Origin: a virus
Taxonomy: Duplodnaviria; Heunggongvirae; Uroviricota; Caudoviricetes
DNA length: 12,891 nucleotides
IMG/VR virus record: IMGVR_UViG_2526164631_000017
Strand: one strand, 5' to 3'
Position 1 is the stretch's first letter. Each line of letters opens with the position of its first letter. A program made the translations under genes and the position numbers. This document shows, in pieces, positions 1-9,027 of this stretch. The notes under the pieces are model-generated. The model ran no database searches. It was given only the letters and a program-made list of their open reading frames with translations, and was not told where the DNA came from.

Positions 1-284
1 GCAGCTACAGGTTGTGACCGGGGGGAGGTTGTAGGGACAACATCTTCGGCATCAAGTGTTATCGGGAGCAGCTCAGGCACGTTGTTTTCTGTTGTTGAAG
101 GAGGACGTAGTTTTCCTTCGCGCCAGTACTGGCGCCACTTGAACAGCAAATTATCGTTGATCCCATGCTCACGAGCGAGTTGCGCTACGGAGATCTCTGG
201 TCGATGCGAGAGTTCAACCATTTTGATTTTGAACTCAACGGGATAATTAGGGCTTTTTTTACGCACTGCGGTTAATGATTTCAT
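1..284 (-). CDS. IS66-family orf1 (TnpA-like) accessory protein, N-terminal part; gene runs leftward out of the window
   Basis: Reverse-complement translation from ATG (complement of 282-284): MKSLTAVRKKSPNYPVEFKIKMVELSHRPEISVAQLAREHGINDNLLFKWRQYWREGKL..., with the HTH-like motif seen in IS-encoded small DNA-binding proteins. Starts 81 bp inside the terminal repeat. Family assignment rests mainly on the terminal repeat, not on this protein. Confidence 0.55.
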   Translation of the reverse strand, partial: MKSLTAVRKKSPNYPVEFKIKMVELSHRPEISVAQLAREHGINDNLLFKWRQYWREGKLRPPSTTENNVPELLPITLDAEDVVPTTSPRSQPVA

Positions 285-339
285 GGATAGCGTCCACCAT
301 ATTTGGTGTCCACTATTCTCTCAGGAATTTCAGGATCTG

Positions 340-365
340 CCAGACGGTGCTGAGACGACGCTTAC
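340..365 (-). repeat. Terminal inverted repeat (IRL-like) of the left IS66-family copy
   Basis: Read inward from 365 on the minus strand: GTAAGCG... Imperfect match to 12550-12575. Confidence 0.6.
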
Positions 366-1986
366 GGATTACCGTCGTGTGGCGCTGACGGATTATGACC
401 GTTTCCCTGAAAACGTGGACGGGGAAGGGGATGCCTTCACCCTGGCATCAAAGCGTACCACCACCTTTATGTCCTCGGGGATGACCCTGGTCGAGAGTTC
501 GCCGGGGCGGGATATCACTGACACCAAATGGCGCTGTGGCGGCGCACATGAGGCACCGCCAACAACGGGGATCCTGTCACTGTATAACCGGGGAGACCGC
601 CGCCGGTGGTACTGGCCGTGTCCGCACTGCGGGGAATATTTTCAGCCGGTGATGGATAACATGACCGGATACCGGAATAACCCGGATTTTGTGGCTGCCG
701 GTCAGGCTGCCCGTCTGATGTGTCCGCATTGTCGCGGGCTGATTGCCCCTGAGCAGAAACGCGAACTGAATAACAAAGGGATCTGGCTTCGTGAAGGTGA
801 ACGGGCGGTGGCGGACGGCAGTATCACCGGAACGCCACGAAATTCCCGGATTGCGTCATTCTGGATGGAGGGGCCGGCTGCGGCGTTTCAGACCTGGGAA
901 CAACTGATTTTTAAACTGCTGGCGGCAGAAGAAGAGTATGAGCGAACCGGCAGTGAAGAGACCCTGAAAGCGGTGGTGAACACCGATATCGGACGCCCCT
1001 ATCTGCCCCGTTCAGCCACGGAACAGCGTAAAAGTGAACTGCTTGAACAGCGTGCCGAGCCGTTTCCCCGGCGATCTGTGCCGGATGGTGTGCGTTTTAT
1101 TGAGGCAACGGTTGACGTACAGGGCGGTAAAAATCGCCGTTTTGTTGTGCAGATCACCGGATACGGAGAGCAGGGGGAACGCTGGATTGTTGATCGCTAT
1201 AACATCCGGCATTCACTGCGCTGCAGTCCCAACGGTGAAAGTCTGCCGGTTGATCCGGCGGCATATCCGGAGGACTGGGATTTGTTGCTGACGGATGTGT
1301 TCCATAAAACATGGCCGCTGGCTTCTGATCCGGATGTGCGCATGCGTCTGATGGCCATGGCGGTGGATACGGGAGGGGAAGCCGGGGTGACAGATAACGC
1401 CTATCGTTTCTGGTGTCGTTGCCGGAGTGACGGACTGGGCAACAGGGTGTTTCTGTTCAAGGGGGATGGACTTCGCCGTGACAGGCTGATTAACCGTACC
1501 TTCCCGGATAATACCGGCAGAAGTGCCCGCCGTGCCAGAGCCAGTGGCGATGTCGCGCTGTGGCTGGTTCAGACGGATGCGTTTAAGGACCGTGTAAATA
1601 ATGCCCTGTGGCGTGACACACCAGGGCCGAACTATATCCACTTTCCCGACTGGCTGGGGCGATGGTTTTACGATGAGCTGACCTATGAAGAGCGCGGCAG
1701 TGACGGAAAATGGCGAAAACCGGGCAGGGGAGCTAACGAGGCGTTTGACCTGCTGGTTTATGCGGATGCGCTTGCCGTTCTGCATGGTTACGAAAAGATC
1801 CGCTGGCCCTCCGCACCGGACTGGGCACAGCGGGAAACGTGGCTCGTCTTCCCGCAGGAGCGTTCTGGTGAAACGGTATCCCCGGAACTGACGGCCGGGG
1901 CAGAAAAACGCCGTCGCCGGAAGAAAAAACTGCGGACGGAGCGTGCGGAAGATAATCCATGGATAACATCAGGAGGCTGGTTGTGA
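366..1986 (+). pseudogene. Terminase large subunit (GpA-like), 5'-truncated by IS insertion
   Basis: Long ORF immediately upstream of gpW-like and portal genes; two CPHC motifs (WPCPHCGEYF, MCPHCRGLI) as in GpA-type terminases. The first 27 codons of the tracked ORF (283-365) lie inside the IS terminal repeat, so the ATG at 283 is not a native start. By rough comparison with lambda gpA from memory, about 100+ N-terminal residues are missing, including the ATPase region. Stop TGA at 1984-1986. Confidence 0.8.
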
Positions 1987-2195
1987 GCACAGAAGAAGCC
2001 AGAGAAATGATACAGCGGTACCGTGAAGCGGAAATGGCCGTACTGGAGGGGAAGTCTGTCACCTTCAACGGACAGCAACTGACGCTGGAAAGCCTTTCTC
2101 AGATCCGCGCCGGACGTCAGGAGTGGGAACGCAGGCTTGCCGCGATGGTGAGCCGCAGGCGGGGAAAACCAGGATTTAAACTGGCGAGGTTTTAA
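1983..2195 (+). CDS. W: Head-tail joining protein, gpW-like
   Basis: C-terminus RRRGKPGFKLARF resembles lambda gpW C-terminus (RRRGPAGF.. from memory); about 70 aa; sits between terminase and portal. Likely start is GTG 1983 with AGGAGG at 1971-1976, overlapping the terminase stop as GTGA; the alternative ATG at 1959 (track ORF) cannot be excluded. Confidence 0.75.
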   Translation: MSTEEAREMIQRYREAEMAVLEGKSVTFNGQQLTLESLSQIRAGRQEWERRLAAMVSRRRGKPGFKLARF

Positions 2196-3697
2196 TGGCA
2201 ATTATTGATGATGTGATAGGCGTGTTTTCCCCCGGCTGGAAAGCAGCCAGACTGCGTTCAAGGGCGTTAATCATGGCCTATGAGGCGGTGAAACCGACCC
2301 GGACACATAAAGCCCGGCGGGAAAATCGCTCTGCTGATCAGCTCAGTAAATACGGTGCGGTTTCCCTGCGGGAGCAGGCCCGTTTTCTGGATATCAATCA
2401 TGACCTGGTGATTGGTGTGTTTGACAAGCTGGAAGAGCGGGTGATTGGTGCCAGGGGAATTATTGTGGAGCCTCAGCCATTACGAAAAAACGGGGAAATG
2501 GCGGCAGAGCTGGCTGCGGATATCCGCCGGTTGTGGGCTGAGTGGTCCGTGAGTCCGGATGTGACAGGGCAGTATACCCGTCCCGTGCTTGAACGTTTAC
2601 TGCTGCGGACCTGGCTGCGGGATGGTGAAGTGTTTGCGCAGATGGTCAGTGGTGCGGGAAACGGTCTGGAACGGACGGCGGGAGTGCCATTCTGGCTTGA
2701 GGCGATGGAGCCGGATTTTGTTCCCATGCGCACTGATGAATCCGCCGGACTGAATCAGGGGGTTTTTCTTGATGAGTGGGGAAGACCGAAAAAATATCTG
2801 GTTTATAAAAATTATCCGGTCAGCGGCCGGCAGAGTGATACGAAAGAAATCGCTGCCGGAAAAATGATCCACCTGAAGTTCACTCGTCGTCTGCATCAGA
2901 CGCGAGGCTCATCCATGTTATCGGGGGTGCTGATGCGGATCAGTGCCCTTAAGGAGTATGAGGATGCGGAACTCACTGCGGCGCGTATTGCCGCGGCGCT
3001 GGGACTGTATATCCGTAAAGGTGACGGGCAGGACTATGAAGAGCCGGGGATCAAAGAAACCGACCGGGAAGTCCATATCACCCCGGGTATTATTTATGAC
3101 GATTTGCGCAAGGGCGAGGATATCGGCATGGTCAAATCAGACCGTCCCAATCCCAACCTTGAAACTTTCCGCAACGGCCAGTTGCGTGCAGTGGCAGCGG
3201 GCAGTCGTCTGAGTTTTTCCAGTGCGGCGCGTAACTATAACGGCACCTACAGTGCCCAGCGGCAGGAGCTGGTCGAGTCCACGGATGGTTACCTGATCCT
3301 GCAGGACTGTTTTATTGGCGCGGTAACCCGTCCGGTGTACCGGACATGGCTGAATATGGTGGTTGCGGCAGGTCTGCTGAAAATTCCGGCGGATGTGGAG
3401 ATGAAAACGCTATATAACGCGACGTATTCCGGTCCGGTGATGCCGTGGATCGACCCGGTTAAGGAAGCTGAAGCCTGGAGAATTCAGATCCGGGGTGGTG
3501 CAGCGACAGAATCTGACTGGGTGCGTGCCGGCGGGCGCAATCCGGATGAGGTCAAACGTCGCCGCAAGGCTGAAATTGATGAAAACAGCAGACTGGGGCT
3601 GGTCTTTGATACTGACCCCGTCAACGACAAAGGAGGCAACAGTGCCGGAACTGAACAACAGCGTCAGCAGGCCACCGACAGCCAGCATGAAGAATAA
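2195..3697 (+). CDS. Portal protein
   Basis: 500-aa ORF directly after gpW-like gene and before the protease gene (canonical terminase–W–portal–protease order); start ATG overlaps the W stop (TAATG). Not closely similar to lambda gpB by eye, so this is a mosaic head module. Confidence 0.75.
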   Translation: MAIIDDVIGVFSPGWKAARLRSRALIMAYEAVKPTRTHKARRENRSADQLSKYGAVSLREQARFLDINHDLVIGVFDKLEERVIGARGIIVEPQPLRKNGEMAAELAADIRRLWAEWSVSPDVTGQYTRPVLERLLLRTWLRDGEVFAQMVSGAGNGLERTAGVPFWLEAMEPDFVPMRTDESAGLNQGVFLDEWGRPKKYLVYKNYPVSGRQSDTKEIAAGKMIHLKFTRRLHQTRGSSMLSGVLMRISALKEYEDAELTAARIAAALGLYIRKGDGQDYEEPGIKETDREVHITPGIIYDDLRKGEDIGMVKSDRPNPNLETFRNGQLRAVAAGSRLSFSSAARNYNGTYSAQRQELVESTDGYLILQDCFIGAVTRPVYRTWLNMVVAAGLLKIPADVEMKTLYNATYSGPVMPWIDPVKEAEAWRIQIRGGAATESDWVRAGGRNPDEVKRRRKAEIDENSRLGLVFDTDPVNDKGGNSAGTEQQRQQATDSQHEE

Positions 3698-5666
3698 ATC
3701 CTGGTTCAGGATGCAGGCGGGTGGTCAGGGTGAGGCGGATATTTATATTTATGACGAGATTGGTTTCTGGGGAGTTACCGCGAAGCAGTTTGTCAGCGAT
3801 ATGAATGCCCTGGGTGATATCACCCACATTAATCTCCACATCAACTCACCGGGTGGCGATGTCTTTGAAGGCATCGCCATTTTTAATGCCCTGAAAAATC
3901 ACGGTGCGGCCATTACCGTGTATGTGGATGGCGTTGCCGCCTCGATGGCATCCCTGATTGCGATGGCCGGTGACACGGTCATTATGCCGGAAAATGCCTT
4001 CATGATGATCCATAAACCCTGGGGGATCAGCGGTGGTGATGCGGAGAAAATGCGCACTTATGCCGAACGTCTGGACAAACTTGAGTCGGTTATGGTGCCG
4101 GTATATGCGCAGAAAACCGGAAAAACTACCGATGAAATTGCCGCCATGCTGGCGGATGAGACCTGGATGTCCGGTGCCGAGTGTCTGGCACACGGATTTG
4201 CAGACCAGGTGACGCCAGCCGTTAAGGCAATGGCATGTATTCAGTCAAAACGTACAGAGGAATTTAAAAAGATGCCGGAATCCATCCGAAATATGATCAC
4301 GCAGCCATACAACAGTGCCCCGCGTGATACCACAGTGACAATCCCTGCACCGGCGGTAACAGAACCATCACCGGTACCGGCAGTGTCTGATGAGGCGACC
4401 ATTCGCGCCCGCGTTATGGCAGAACAGAAAGCCCGCATGTCAGGCATTAACGATCTGTTTGCCATGTTCGGCGGTCGCTATCAGACGCTTCAGGCACAGT
4501 GCGTGGCTGATCCTGACTGTTCGCTGGAAATGGCCCGTGAACGTCTGCTGAATGAAATGGGCAAGGAGTCCTCGCCGACCAACAAAAATACACCGGCTCA
4601 TATTTATGCCGGAAACGGCAATTTTGTGGGGGACGGGATCCGCCAGGCGATGCTGGCCCGTGCCGGATTTGAAAATGTCGAGAAGGATAACGCCTATAAC
4701 GGGATGACCCTGCGTGAATGGGCTCGCATGTCACTGACGGAGCGCGGTATTGGGGTGGCCAGTTATAACCCCATGCAGATGGTCGGGCTGGCGCTGACGC
4801 ACAGCACCTCTGATTTTGGCAATATTCTGCTGGATGTGTCGAACAAGGGGCTGATCCAGGGCTGGGAGGAATCAGAAGAAACCTTCCAGAAGTGGACCCG
4901 TAAGGGACGCCTGTCAGACTTCAAAACAGCGTATCGCGTGGGGATGGGCGGTTTTGGTTCTCTGCGCCAGGTTCGTGAGGGGGCGGAGTATAAATACATC
5001 ACCACCTCAGATCGCAAGGAGACCATTGCACTGGCCACTTACGGGGAGATTTTCTCCATCACCCGCCAGGCCATTATCAATGATGATCTGAATATGCTGG
5101 TGGACGTGCCGATGAAGATGGGGCGTGCGGCGAAGGCAACGATTGGTGACCTGGTTTACAAGGTGCTGACGGATAACCCGAAACTGTCAGACGGTAAGGC
5201 GCTGTTCCATGCCGATCACAAAAATATTGCCACCGGTGGGATTTCCGTTTCCGGACTGGATGCGGCCCGTCAGATGATGCGCCTGCAGAAAGAAGGCGAT
5301 CGCGCCCTGAATATCCGTCCGGCCTTTATGCTGGTACCGGTGGCACTGGAGACGGTGGCGAACCAGACCATCAAATCGGCCAGTGTGAAAGGGGCGGATG
5401 CAAACGCCGGTGTCATTAACCCCATCCAGAACTTTGCTGAGGTGATTGCAGAAGCGCGTCTTGATGCGGCAGATCCGAAAACCTGGTATCTGGCGGCGGC
5501 ACAGGGCACTGACACCATTGAAGTGGCCTGGCTGGATGGTGTGGACACGCCATACATTGATCAGCAGGAAGGTTTCACCACTGACGGCATTGCCACAAAA
5601 ATCCGTATTGATGCCGGAGTGGCACCACTTGACTGGCGCGGGCTGGTGCGTTCGTCGGTGGCCTGA
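3642..5666 (+). CDS. Prohead protease (ClpP-like) – scaffold – putative major capsid fusion protein
   Basis: N-terminal domain has ClpP-type motifs: GVAASMASLIAMAGD (GxxSMA catalytic Ser context) and MMIHKPWG (catalytic His context). No separate major-capsid-sized gene follows, and the C-terminal ~350 aa look like an HK97-fold capsid domain (inference). Proposed start is GTG 3642 with AAAGGAGG 5 nt upstream; the track ORF start 3495 and ATG 3687 are alternatives. Confidence 0.7.
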   Translation: MPELNNSVSRPPTASMKNKSWFRMQAGGQGEADIYIYDEIGFWGVTAKQFVSDMNALGDITHINLHINSPGGDVFEGIAIFNALKNHGAAITVYVDGVAASMASLIAMAGDTVIMPENAFMMIHKPWGISGGDAEKMRTYAERLDKLESVMVPVYAQKTGKTTDEIAAMLADETWMSGAECLAHGFADQVTPAVKAMACIQSKRTEEFKKMPESIRNMITQPYNSAPRDTTVTIPAPAVTEPSPVPAVSDEATIRARVMAEQKARMSGINDLFAMFGGRYQTLQAQCVADPDCSLEMARERLLNEMGKESSPTNKNTPAHIYAGNGNFVGDGIRQAMLARAGFENVEKDNAYNGMTLREWARMSLTERGIGVASYNPMQMVGLALTHSTSDFGNILLDVSNKGLIQGWEESEETFQKWTRKGRLSDFKTAYRVGMGGFGSLRQVREGAEYKYITTSDRKETIALATYGEIFSITRQAIINDDLNMLVDVPMKMGRAAKATIGDLVYKVLTDNPKLSDGKALFHADHKNIATGGISVSGLDAARQMMRLQKEGDRALNIRPAFMLVPVALETVANQTIKSASVKGADANAGVINPIQNFAEVIAEARLDAADPKTWYLAAAQGTDTIEVAWLDGVDTPYIDQQEGFTTDGIATKIRIDAGVAPLDWRGLVRSSVA

Positions 5667-5688
5667 TAACCGAGTTATCACAATCACT

Positions 5689-5707
5689 GCCCGAAAGGGC
5701 TTTTTTT
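5689..5707 (+). terminator. Candidate intrinsic terminator after the capsid gene
   Basis: GCCC-GAAA-GGGC hairpin (4-bp GC stem, GNRA-type loop) followed by T7 at 5701-5707, 23 nt after the stop at 5666. The stem is short, so this may be a partial terminator. Confidence 0.4.
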
Positions 5708-5718
5708 ATGCCTGAAAA

Positions 5719-5737
5719 ACAGCCCCACAGGGGCTGT
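5719..5737 (+). promoter_or_regulatory. Perfect hairpin (8-bp stem ACAGCCCC / GGGGCTGT, 3-nt loop) upstream of the next gene's ribosome-binding site
   Basis: Seen directly in sequence. No T-run follows. GGAG at 5740-5743 and ATG at 5754 lie just downstream. Possible RNA stability or translation-control element. Confidence 0.3.
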
Positions 5738-5753
5738 CCGGAGAAACAGCATT

Positions 5754-6080
5754 ATGGCGAAAAATTTTGTACAGGACGGTACCACCATTGAACTGGTGAA
5801 TGCCGGAGATCAGACCATCCTGAGCGGTGCTGCGGTGGTGGTCGGCAGTATGGTGGCCGTGGCCATTACAGATATTCCTGCCGGTGATGCCGGTGACGGT
5901 TTTGCCGAAGGCGTGTTCCTTCTGCCCAAACAGTCTGCTGACGACATTCAGTCCGGCGCGGTGGTTTATCTGAAGGACGGGGTTGTGCAGCTGGCTGCAG
6001 AGGGTGCGGTGGCCGCGGGGGTAGCCTGGGAAAATGCTCCTGCAAACAGCGCCACTGTGGCGGTAAAAATCAATGTCTGA
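5754..6080 (+). CDS. Small head protein, DUF2190-like (putative decoration or head-associated protein)
   Basis: 108 aa, Gly/Ala/Val-rich: MAKNFVQDGTTIELVNAGDQ...; resembles the small conserved proteins commonly encoded next to major capsid genes (from memory; function is inference). Confidence 0.5.
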   Translation: MAKNFVQDGTTIELVNAGDQTILSGAAVVVGSMVAVAITDIPAGDAGDGFAEGVFLLPKQSADDIQSGAVVYLKDGVVQLAAEGAVAAGVAWENAPANSATVAVKINV

Positions 6081-6354
6081 TCTGTTTACGCGAATGTGTT
6101 GCCGGATGGACGGGGCGACCGTTCGGGTGATGGGCAAACAGGCGGAGATTAACGGCGTCGTGTATGACGTGATGCCGGAGGAAGAGTCCGCGGAGATGGG
6201 GGCGCTTTCGGGCAGCCAGTTGTCACTGGTGGTGTTTTCAGCCCGGTACCGTCCGGCCCGTCATGATGTTGTTGTGTTTGCGGGGCGCACACTGACGGTG
6301 ACCCGTTATGACACGTACAACGGTAAACCCCGGATTTTTGTCGAACAGGAATGA
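6073..6354 (+). CDS. Putative head completion / head-tail connector protein (at the FII position)
   Basis: 93-aa ORF between the head genes and gpZ; start ATG overlaps the upstream stop (ATGTCTGA). Assignment is by position only; similarity to lambda FII is weak. Confidence 0.4.
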   Translation: MSDLFTRMCCRMDGATVRVMGKQAEINGVVYDVMPEEESAEMGALSGSQLSLVVFSARYRPARHDVVVFAGRTLTVTRYDTYNGKPRIFVEQE

Positions 6355-8164: not shown

Positions 8165-8596
8165 ATGTTTCTGAAAACAGAACAATTTGAATATAACGGT
8201 GTGTCTGTCACGCTTTCCGAGCTGTCTGCGCTGCAGCGTATTGAGCATCTTGCCCTCCTGAAACGGCGGGCAGAAGAGGCTGAAGCCAGCGGCAACCTGC
8301 AGGTGAGTGTGGAAGATCTTGTCAGAACCGGCGCGTTTCTGGTGGCGATGTCCCTGTGGCATAACCATCCACAGAAAACGCAGTCACCGTCAATGAATGA
8401 GGCCGTGATGAAGATAGAGCAGGAAGTGCTCACCACCTGGCCTGCCGATGCCATTGCCCGGGCGGAAGACGTGGTGTTGTGCCTGTCCGGGATGATCGAA
8501 GCTGTTCGTCCGGATACTGATATTACTGAAGTGGCGAAAAATAACACGCTGACTGATGATGATTTTTCTGCGGGAAAGTCTTCGACGGTGAGCTGA
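8165..8596 (+). CDS. G: Tail assembly chaperone G
   Basis: 143 aa; MFLKTEQFEYNGVSVTLSELSALQRIEHLAL...GAFLVAMSLWHNHPQKTQ matches lambda gpG as recalled; ends ...SAGKSSTVS. Confidence 0.92.
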   Translation: MFLKTEQFEYNGVSVTLSELSALQRIEHLALLKRRAEEAEASGNLQVSVEDLVRTGAFLVAMSLWHNHPQKTQSPSMNEAVMKIEQEVLTTWPADAIARAEDVVLCLSGMIEAVRPDTDITEVAKNNTLTDDDFSAGKSSTVS

Positions 8597-9027
8597 ACTT
8601 TGCCCTCAGACTGGCGCGTGAGATGGGGAGACCCGACTGGCGCGCCATGCTTGCCGGGATGACATCCACCGAATATGCCGACTGGCACCGTTTTTACCGC
8701 ACGCATTATTTTCAGGATACCCAGCTGGATATGCATTTTTCCGGGCTGACGTACGCTGTACTCAGCCTGTTTTTTTGCGATCCGGATATGCATCCCTCTG
8801 ATTTCAGTCTGCTGGCACCCCGACGTGATGATGAGCAGACGGAGATGCCGGATGAGGACGATATGCTGATGCGGAAAGCGGCAGGTCTTTCTGGTGGTGT
8901 CCGCTTTGGGGCTGACGGGAAGGAAATCGTTATGGTCAGTGATGACATGCGGAGCAGTACAGAGGATGAAGCCATGCTGATGATGGTGTCTGAGGGAATT
9001 CCAGGAGGTGTACGCTATGGCGGGTAA
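8165..9027 (+). CDS. T: Tail assembly chaperone G-T fusion made by programmed -1 ribosomal frameshift (slip at 8572-8578; T-frame part 8578-9027)
   Basis: Slippery heptamer G GGA AAG at 8572-8578 in the G frame, near the end of G. The -1 frame is open from there to TAA at 9025-9027 (VFDGELNFALRLAREMGRPDWRAMLAGMTS...), and the 8623-9027 track ORF is its tail. Same arrangement as lambda G/G-T. Confidence 0.85.

What the first reader, a model, noticed from the sequence alone, without database searches (positions are those of the whole stretch)
3642..5666. Single ~675-aa ORF fusing a ClpP-like prohead protease to scaffold-like and capsid-like regions
The N-terminal ~200 aa carry ClpP-type Ser and His contexts (GVAASMASL, MMIHKPW). 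The middle is a charged, probably helical segment, and the C-terminal ~350 aa is the only candidate for the major capsid protein in this module, since only 108-aa and 93-aa genes follow before the tail genes. Head modules of this kind differ from lambda's separate C/Nu3/D/E genes and imply self-processing of the capsid precursor.
Basis: partly seen in the sequence, partly recalled or inferred. Interest (0 to 1): 0.5.

Follow-up and report, generated by a model that had tools for sequence, protein, structure and literature searches.

The report
Fused protease-scaffold-capsid gene of a prophage
This is the well-known "tripartite" head gene of Gifsy-2-type lambdoid prophages, one reading frame encoding a ClpP-like maturation protease, a scaffold segment and the major capsid protein; it is ordinary and already annotated, though it seems to carry a conserved internal start site that may not have been described.

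Summary
An uninterrupted ORF runs from 3495 to 5666. The likely start is GTG 3642 (674 aa); RefSeq uses ATG 3687 (659 aa, the numbering used here).

- **Protease:** residues about 5-185 are a ClpP-fold domain. Ser86 and His109 are invariant in 52 relatives.
- **Middle:** residues 206-233 form a Pro-rich linker, and 236-294 are confidently predicted helices.
- **Capsid:** residues about 310-659 are an HK97-fold major capsid protein.

The protein is a full-length member of NCBIfam NF045540, [quoted passage not shown]. It is 61% identical to the Gifsy-2 "tripartite capsid gene" product (Effantin 2010). Matches occur in 2070 of 5426 complete E. coli genomes. The next gene encodes a cement (decoration) protein.

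I found one addition. Met196 (ATG 4272) sits at the protease/scaffold junction behind an SD-like GAGGAA. It is Met in 144 of 148 aligned fusion proteins. Across 83 diverse genes its SD strength matches real gene starts (94.5% vs 6% for other internal ATGs). This suggests a nested 464-aa scaffold-capsid product, as in lambda C/Nu3. That is inference, not demonstration.

The parts
3629..3635 (+). Shine-Dalgarno AAGGAGG for the full-length product
   Evidence: Read from the sequence. It lies 6 nt upstream of GTG 3642.
3642..5666 (+). Full tripartite gene: 674 codons from GTG 3642 plus the stop codon. RefSeq starts at ATG 3687, giving 659 aa; residue numbers in this report use that 659-aa form.
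   Evidence: The N-terminus is homologous to the Gifsy-2 start. NF045540 scores 995.8 bits against a cutoff of 475.
3699..4241 (+). ClpP-fold head-maturation protease domain, residues about 5-185
3942..3944 (+). Codon for Ser86, the putative catalytic nucleophile in GVAASMAS
   Evidence: It aligns to the ClpP active-site Ser. It is invariant in 52 of 52 ClpP-type fusions.
4011..4013 (+). Codon for His109, the putative catalytic His in MMIHKPW
   Evidence: It aligns to the ClpP His. It is invariant in 52 of 52.
4158..4160 (+). Codon for Glu158, at the position of ClpP's catalytic Asp
   Evidence: Taken from the alignment to ClpP. The position is Glu in 45 of 52 and Asp in 2 of 52.
4257..4262 (+). 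Internal SD-like GAGGAA (codons 191-192) ahead of the nested start
   Evidence: Codon 191 is always NAG (GAG 41, CAG 15, AAG 4 of 60) and codon 192 is always GAN. Synonymous-codon entropy at codons 188-194 is one of the two lowest stretches in the gene.
4272..4274 (+). ATG for Met196, the candidate in-frame internal start. It would give a 464-aa, 50.5-kDa scaffold+capsid product.
   Evidence: The column is Met in 144 of 148 aligned fusions, and it is the only strongly conserved Met column. SD duplex strength equals that of real gene starts.
4302..4385 (+). Pro-rich, poorly conserved linker, residues 206-233
   Evidence: AF2 pLDDT is below 50. This is the least conserved and most gapped stretch of the alignment. 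The 186-235 segment is 16% Pro.
4392..4568 (+). Helical scaffold-like segment, residues 236-294
   Evidence: Helices 236-259, 266-274 and 280-294 have pLDDT 87-94. The segment is 28% charged.
4614..5663 (+). Major capsid protein region with HK97 fold, residues about 310-659. The Pfam core is 369-656. The mature N-terminus is unknown.
5754..6080 (+). Head decoration (cement) protein gene, the partner of the capsid shell
   Evidence: Pfam Phage_cement_2 at E 5e-19. PHROG 122, head decoration. It is 54% identical to the Gifsy-2 neighbour.
2195..3697 (+). Lambda-family portal gene. Its 3' end overlaps the start of the tripartite gene.
   Evidence: Pfam Phage_portal_2 at E 2.8e-80 and the RefSeq annotation.

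Best explanation
The ORF is the Gifsy-2-type tripartite head gene of an E. coli lambdoid prophage. One frame encodes, in order, a ClpP-fold serine protease, a flexible linker with a helical scaffold segment, and an HK97-fold major capsid protein.

**Inferred mechanism.**
1. Precursors co-assemble on the lambda-type portal into a T=7 procapsid, with the protease and scaffold parts pointing inward.
2. The protease (Ser86/His109) then removes itself and the scaffold, leaving the C-terminal capsid protein. The exact cleavage site is unknown.
3. The shell expands on DNA packaging.
4. Trimers of the downstream cement protein stabilise the shell, as gpD does in lambda.

**Likely refinement.** A conserved in-frame start at Met196 (ATG 4272, SD GAGGAA) probably also yields a protease-less scaffold-capsid protein. 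Only a subset of subunits would then carry the protease, as in lambda C/Nu3.

**Shown versus inferred.** Domain identities, family membership and conservation of the internal start signal are shown here. Assembly, cleavage and use of the internal start are inferred.
For: - **ORF:** it is intact.
- **Family:** NF045540 matches full length at 995.8 bits against a cutoff of 475. PHROG 133 matches full length.
- **Domains:** Pfam CLP_protease plus Phage_capsid_4.
- **Closest characterised relative:** 61% identity over the whole length to the Gifsy-2 gene. That gene's fused protease and coat protein, T=7 capsid and trimeric decoration protein are described in PMC12315714, PMC8814770 and PMC8538268.
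- **Independent description:** Pseudomonas phage MD8 has the same three-in-one gene (PMC8508860).
- **Structure:** the AF2 model with a multiple alignment has pLDDT 85. It matches ClpP and capsid/encapsulin folds.
- **Active site:** Ser86 and His109 are invariant.
- **Neighbour:** a cement gene lies next door.
- **Internal start:**
Against: - No experimental data exist for this particular prophage.
- The mature capsid N-terminus cannot be predicted from sequence.
- ClpP's catalytic Asp position holds Glu158 in most relatives and varies in a few, so the third catalytic residue is uncertain.
- I could not read the primary Gifsy-2 paper. Details of its processing rest on citing papers and on my memory of the abstract.
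- The internal start rests on comparative evidence only. The SD-like motif is partly built from conserved acidic residues, and the synonymous-recoding test gave a moderate effect (mean percentile 0.30 vs 0.68 for controls).
Confidence: 0.9

Rival explanations
1. The gene makes a single product. Only the full-length 73-kDa polyprotein is translated, and every one of about 415 shell subunits brings its own protease. On this view the conserved Met196 and upstream purine-rich motif reflect protein-level constraints, or are a relic of an ancestral gene boundary.
For: The SD-like motif derives largely from conserved acidic or amide residues (EE, QE, KE). Synonymous recoding often still gives a fair SD; simulated means are about -3 to -6 kcal/mol. 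No protein data are available. The fusion papers I could read do not mention a second product.
Against: - Met196 is the only strongly conserved Met column (144 of 148), and it sits in the least conserved linker.
- Start-type codons alternate at the homologous site, for example ATG in L121 and GTG in L120.
- 94.5% of junction ATGs have an SD duplex of -5 kcal/mol or stronger. The figure is 6.1% for 966 control internal ATGs and 87% for true downstream gene starts.
- The third base of codon 191 is G in 60 of 60 genes, although the residue varies between E, Q and K and GAA is the commoner Glu codon in these genes.
- The feature is shared by two families with unrelated protease domains.
Confidence: 0.35
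2. The N-terminal ClpP-like domain is an inactive structural or scaffolding remnant, and maturation cleavage is carried out by a host or other phage protease.
For: The position of ClpP's catalytic Asp is Glu in most relatives and is non-acidic in 5 of 52. The scores to bona fide ClpP equivalogs are far below their cutoffs.
Against: Ser86 and His109 are invariant in 52 of 52 diverse fusions, and so is their sequence context. NF045542, 'head maturation protease, ClpP-related', scores 220.8 bits against a cutoff of 120. No other protease gene lies in the head module.
Confidence: 0.04
3. The long ORF is an artefact or pseudogene: two or three genes joined by a sequencing error or mutation. Alternatively it is only a 'protease/scaffold' protein, as older GenBank records name it, and the capsid gene lies elsewhere.
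For: Older annotations read 'protease/scaffold protein', 'Clp protease' or 'head-tail preconnector'. One relative, L246, carries an in-frame TAA in the linker.
Against: - The identical architecture is found in 1819 complete E. coli genomes.
- Of the 150 best 50%-identity cluster representatives, 118 are at least 600 aa long.
- It occurs in isolated, plaque-forming phages such as LLS, mEp460 and cdtI.
- The C-terminus carries a strong capsid HMM match and capsid fold.
- Nothing else in the module can be the capsid protein.
Confidence: 0.01

Closest known systems
Salmonella phage Gifsy-2 tripartite capsid gene (STM1034.3n; Effantin et al. 2010, Virology 402:355) and NCBIfam NF045540, 'ClpP-like prohead protease/major capsid protein fusion protein'
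   Same: The order ClpP-like protease, scaffold-like middle, HK97-fold capsid protein is the same. The two proteins are 61% identical end to end, and both score far above the NF045540 cutoff. The neighbourhood also matches: lambda-type terminase, W-like adaptor and portal upstream; cement protein, PF13856 protein and gpZ/U/V/G/T/H downstream.
   Different: The host is E. coli. The N-terminal leader is 10 residues shorter, and the linker sequence differs. No functional difference is evident.
Pseudomonas phage MD8 gp5 and vB_Pae_BR133a 'Clp protease-like protein' (693 aa)
   Same: These are the same three-part gene, described in PMC8508860. BR133a is 57% identical over the full length. Its homologous internal ATG is also preceded by AGGAG.
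   Different: The host genus and the tail module differ.
NCBIfam NF045541, 'prohead protease/major capsid protein fusion protein' (for example Vibrio phage 1.083.O gp23)
   Same: The scaffold and capsid portions are homologous, about 30% identical. A cement gene again lies downstream. The junction Met with an SD is also conserved.
   Different: The N-terminal protease domain is unrelated to ClpP; Pfam finds no CLP_protease match. The window protein scores 417.5 bits against this model, below its cutoff of 525, so it is not a member.
Lambda C/Nu3 (also Mu I/Z and herpesvirus UL26/UL26.5) nested protease-scaffold genes
   Same: The protease and scaffold share one frame. An internal in-frame start is likely, giving a protease-less product that shares its C-terminus with the longer one. 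This part is inference. The portal, terminase and tail genes here are lambda-type.
   Different: In lambda the capsid protein gpE is a separate gene, and the decoration gene D precedes it. Lambda gpC is an S49-type (SppA-like) enzyme, whereas this domain matches S14/ClpP models much better.
HK97 gp4/gp5
   Same: The scaffold function is covalently attached to the N-terminus of an HK97-fold capsid protein and is removed by a phage protease inside the procapsid.
   Different: The HK97 protease is a separate gene of a different fold. HK97 stabilises its shell by covalent crosslinks, whereas here a cement protein gene is present.

Membership tests
NF045540, ClpP-like prohead protease/major capsid protein fusion (Gifsy-2 type) | Full-length match to the curated HMM above its trusted cutoff | tested here: met
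   995.8 bits against a cutoff of 475, covering residues 17-657 of the protein and positions 2-651 of 652 in the model.
NF045540, ClpP-like prohead protease/major capsid protein fusion (Gifsy-2 type) | N-terminal ClpP-related head-maturation protease domain with Ser and His | tested here: met
NF045540, ClpP-like prohead protease/major capsid protein fusion (Gifsy-2 type) | C-terminal HK97-fold major capsid domain in the same frame | tested here: met
NF045540, ClpP-like prohead protease/major capsid protein fusion (Gifsy-2 type) | Position in the head module between the portal gene and the decoration gene | tested here: met
   The gene order is the same as in Gifsy-2.
NF045540, ClpP-like prohead protease/major capsid protein fusion (Gifsy-2 type) | Proteolytic release of the capsid protein, with protease and scaffold absent from virions | not testable with these tools
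   This needs protein analysis of particles. It is known only for Gifsy-2, and only from the literature.
Peptidase family S14 (ClpP proper) | Ser-His-Asp catalytic triad | tested here: inconclusive
   Ser and His are conserved. The Asp position holds Glu158 (Glu in 45 of 52, Asp in 2 of 52).
Peptidase family S14 (ClpP proper) | Score above the ClpP equivalog cutoffs; tetradecamer that docks ClpX/ClpA | tested here: not met
   TIGR00493 scores 64.6 bits against a cutoff of 308.6, and the other ClpP models are also far below their cutoffs. Oligomer state is not testable. The domain is ClpP-fold but is not a cellular ClpP.
Peptidase family S49 (SppA / lambda gpC) | Match to SppA-type models | tested here: not met
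NF045541, prohead protease/MCP fusion, type 2 | Full-length HMM score above cutoff | tested here: not met
   417.5 bits against a cutoff of 525. Only residues 202-656 match, which are the scaffold and capsid portions.
Nested protease/scaffold genes (lambda C/Nu3 type) | Conserved in-frame internal start codon with a ribosome-binding site at the protease/scaffold boundary | tested here: met
   The column is Met in 144 of 148 proteins. About 82 of 83 representative genes have an SD plus ATG or GTG there. Of the junction ATGs, 94.5% reach -5 kcal/mol, against 6.1% of control ATGs and 87% of true starts. AGGA is invariant and there is a synonymous-site minimum.
Nested protease/scaffold genes (lambda C/Nu3 type) | Two polypeptides actually made from the one frame | not testable with these tools
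   This needs Western blot or mass spectrometry, or initiation-site profiling.

The most novel reading that the evidence does not exclude
The tripartite gene may really be a nested pair. Besides the 73-kDa protease-scaffold-capsid chain, ribosomes would start at the conserved Met196 (ATG 4272, SD GAGGAA at 4257-4262) and make a 50.5-kDa scaffold-capsid chain.

The ratio of the two start sites would then set how many protease copies are packed into each procapsid. The signal is conserved across both the ClpP-type and the non-ClpP-type fusion families. That would make it a general design rule for these very common head modules.

I could not establish whether this has been reported before, because the primary Gifsy-2 paper was not readable.
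Probability: 0.55. Interest if true: 0.4.

Novelty: already known. Interest (0 to 1): 0.2.

Why it matters
**Annotation.** This is one of the commonest head modules in enterobacterial and pseudomonad prophages; 2070 of 5426 complete E. coli genomes carry a match, Stx- and Cdt-converting phages among them. Many GenBank records still call the gene only "Clp protease" or "protease/scaffold", so the capsid gene is hidden. One automated capsid-protein survey indeed failed to find the Gifsy-2 capsid protein (PMC8814770).

**Biology.** If the internal start is real, it explains how a phage with protease and coat on one chain avoids putting about 415 proteases into each head. It also extends the lambda, Mu and herpesvirus nested-gene logic to a three-part gene.

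Neither point changes the verdict that the reported fusion is known and ordinary.

Tried and rejected
1. **Single-sequence AlphaFold.** The full protein gave an unusable model (pLDDT 38). It was replaced by a run with a 148-sequence alignment.
3. **Primary Gifsy-2 paper.** It is not held. Several literature searches for the cleavage site or for an internal start found nothing relevant.
4. **Natural "unfused" relatives.** I looked for these as a test of the internal start. L245 proved to be a scaffold gap of 100 N. L246 has an in-frame TAA in the linker. The 461-464-aa database entries start at Met196, but I did not check their contigs; they may be calls on truncated contigs or on IS629-disrupted copies such as VT1-Sakai. 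None of these counts as evidence.
5. **Mature capsid N-terminus.** It could not be located. Conservation and the model only bracket it between about residues 296 and 370.
6. **S49/lambda-gpC assignment.** Considered for the protease and rejected.
7. **Terminator scan.** It did not report the short hairpin plus U-run after the stop codon. Folding shows the hairpin, but it has only 4 base pairs.
Full report
**Observation.** The + strand frame is open from 3495 to the TGA at 5664-5666. Two starts are plausible. GTG 3642 lies 6 nt after a strong AAGGAGG at 3629-3635 and gives 674 aa. ATG 3687 has no SD and gives 659 aa; RefSeq uses it for the identical gene in E. coli 55989. The product from the GTG begins (M)PEL.., which matches the annotated Gifsy-2 start MPEV... 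A 674-aa form is also the most populous database cluster (P0001, 3481 members). Residue numbers below use the 659-aa form; add 15 for the 674-aa form.

**Origin.** The window is a lambdoid prophage of E. coli. It is 100% identical to E. coli 55989, O111 strains and others, and 99.5% identical to phage CP-1639 and several Stx2a-converting phages. Matches occur in 2070 of 5426 complete E. coli genomes, and 1819 of these carry at least 80% of the ORF. RefSeq names the product [quoted passage not shown].

**Domain checks.**
- Pfam finds CLP_protease at residues 30-176 (E 1.5e-36) and Phage_capsid_4 at 369-656 (E 7e-56), with a weaker Mu-like_gpT match.
- NCBIfam NF045540 matches end to end at 995.8 bits against a cutoff of 475. 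NF045542, "head maturation protease, ClpP-related", scores 220.8 against 120. Cellular ClpP and SppA models are far below their cutoffs.
- PHROG 133 matches the full length.
- Against solved structures, the N-terminus aligns to ClpP with GVAASMAS on the active-site Ser motif and MMIHKPW on the His motif. ClpP's catalytic Asp aligns with Glu158.
- In 52 ClpP-type fusions, Ser86 and His109 are invariant. Position 158 is Glu in 45 and Asp in 2.
- The C-terminal part has weak but significant sequence similarity to solved Mu-type capsid proteins (9jod, E 2.6e-5).

**Structure.** A single-sequence AlphaFold run failed (pLDDT 38). A run with a 148-sequence alignment (A1) gave a mean pLDDT of 85.
- Residues 206-233 are a low-confidence linker. 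This is also the least conserved stretch, and the 186-235 segment is 16% Pro.
- Helices 236-294 are confidently predicted, and this segment is 28% charged.
- Residues 296-309 form a second short low-confidence loop.

**Neighbourhood.** Upstream lie a lambda-type large terminase that runs off the 5' end of the window, a 78-aa head-tail adaptor and a lambda-family portal. Downstream lie a 108-aa cement/decoration protein (Phage_cement_2, PHROG 122), a 93-aa PF13856 protein, and then gpZ, gpU, gpV, gpG, gpT, the tape measure protein and further tail genes. Nothing else can be the capsid protein.

**Comparison with known systems.** The protein is 61% identical over its whole length to the Gifsy-2 gene product, which also belongs to NF045540. 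The gene order matches, and the cement proteins are 54% identical. [quoted passage not shown] All of them cite Effantin et al. 2010, which I could not open. The same three-in-one gene is described independently for Pseudomonas phage MD8 (PMC8508860). The fusion is therefore a known, curated and very common architecture.

**Distribution.** I searched 1.84 billion cluster representatives with the capsid part alone. This gave 11,047 hits at E ≤ 1e-3 and 3,074 at E ≤ 1e-30. Of the best 150, 118 are at least 600 aa long. Seventy-nine of those carry the ClpP-type N-terminus. Thirty-six carry the unrelated N-terminus of the NF045541 family, exemplified by Vibrio phage 1.083.O. The same scaffold-capsid unit is thus found behind two different proteases.

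**Added finding: a probable nested start.** In alignment A1 the only strongly conserved Met column is residue 196. It is Met in 144 of 148 sequences, Val in 3 and Leu in 1. It sits in the gap-rich junction just after the protease domain, in both fusion families. I fetched 240 related loci from viral contigs and reduced them to 83 genes at 90% identity.
- **Presence of a start.** An in-frame ATG lies at the junction in 73 of the 83 genes. The other ten have an SD-preceded ATG or GTG just outside my search window.
- **SD strength.** Of the junction ATGs, 94.5% have an anti-SD duplex of -5 kcal/mol or stronger (mean -6.5). This compares with 6.1% of 966 other internal in-frame ATGs (mean -1.7), and with 87% of the true starts of the downstream gene (mean -6.4).
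- **Synonymous recoding.** Actual codons give a stronger SD than recoded ones (mean percentile 0.30 vs 0.68 in controls).
- **Codon-level constraint.** In 60 ClpP-type genes, codon 191 is always NAG (GAG 41, CAG 15, AAG 4) and codon 192 is always GAN. This keeps AGGA invariant although GAA is the commoner Glu codon in these genes.
- **Synonymous-site minimum.** Synonymous-codon entropy at codons 188-194 is 0.65, against a gene mean of 1.23 (sd 0.195). This is one of the two lowest stretches in the gene.

In the window the elements are GAGGAA at 4257-4262 and ATG at 4272. The product would be 464 aa and 50.5 kDa. The best reading is an internal initiation site giving a protease-less scaffold-capsid chain, as in lambda C/Nu3. 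This is comparative inference. Phylogenetic non-independence is a caveat, and so is the fact that the motif is built partly from conserved acidic residues. I could not check whether the primary Gifsy-2 paper already reports it.

**Mechanism.** The shown elements are three domains in one frame, conserved catalytic Ser and His, the adjacent cement gene and the conserved internal start signal. The rest is inferred from the Gifsy-2, HK97 and lambda literature.
1. Precursors co-assemble on the portal into a T=7 procapsid.
2. The protease removes itself and the scaffold from inside.
3. The shell expands during DNA packaging.
4. Cement trimers bind the expanded shell.

The mature N-terminus is only bracketed, between about residues 296 and 370.

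**Verdict.** The feature is already known, so interest is low. The possibly undescribed nested start is a modest extra.

Noticed in passing
window 3629-3697: Start-codon discrepancy. RefSeq/PGAP starts the gene at ATG 3687, which has no SD. GTG 3642 has a strong AAGGAGG, and its product is homologous to the Gifsy-2 N-terminus (MPEV / (M)PEL). With the GTG start, the gene overlaps the portal gene's 3' end by 56 nt.
   Followed up: partly
window 8572-8578: A canonical lambda-type -1 slippery heptamer, GGGAAAG, lies near the end of the gpG-like chaperone ORF (8165-8596) and just before the gpT-like ORF (8623-9027). This points to a G/GT programmed frameshift.
   Followed up: partly
window 5664-5752: The 87-nt spacer between the capsid gene and the cement gene folds into three hairpins (z = -3.3 against shuffles). 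One overlaps the stop codon. One is a short GCCC-GAAA-GGGC stem followed by U7, which looks like a terminator. One is CAGCCCC-ACA-GGGGCUG, just before the cement gene's SD. Related loci also show a GGGGCTG element before that start. The hairpins could tune the capsid-to-cement expression ratio.
   Followed up: partly
window 6073-6354: RefSeq names the 93-aa gene 'DNA breaking-rejoining protein'. It matches Pfam PF13856 ('Gifsy-2' family) and PHROG 153 ('minor tail protein') and sits where a head-completion or head-tail connector gene is expected. The RefSeq name looks wrong.
   Followed up: partly
window 1-1986: The large terminase gene (gpA ATPase plus nuclease domains) runs off the 5' end of the window. 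In E. coli 55989 it starts 138 nt upstream of window position 1. The listed ORF 283-1986 is therefore only part of the gene.
   Followed up: yes
L004 3137-5152 and loci L085-L164: A sister family (NF045541) carries a homologous scaffold-capsid unit and a downstream cement gene, but behind an N-terminal protease domain that is not ClpP-like. This points to protease-domain swapping in front of a conserved scaffold-capsid module.
   Followed up: partly
L139, L140, L145 (junction region of the fusion gene): Some distant relatives carry a Cys-rich insert resembling a zinc ribbon (for example CPDCGNQFDGAACACGH) in the linker between the protease and the scaffold.
   Followed up: no
L246 2983-3003: One enterobacterial variant (cluster P0074, 46 member sequences) has an in-frame TAA in the Pro-rich linker. 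It is called as separate protease (230 aa) and scaffold-capsid (441 aa) genes. Whether this is a defective prophage or a functional split is unknown.
   Followed up: partly
AP000400.1 (phage VT1-Sakai), hit H10: The homologous gene in the Stx1 phage of E. coli O157:H7 Sakai is interrupted by IS629. That prophage's head gene is therefore disrupted.
   Followed up: no
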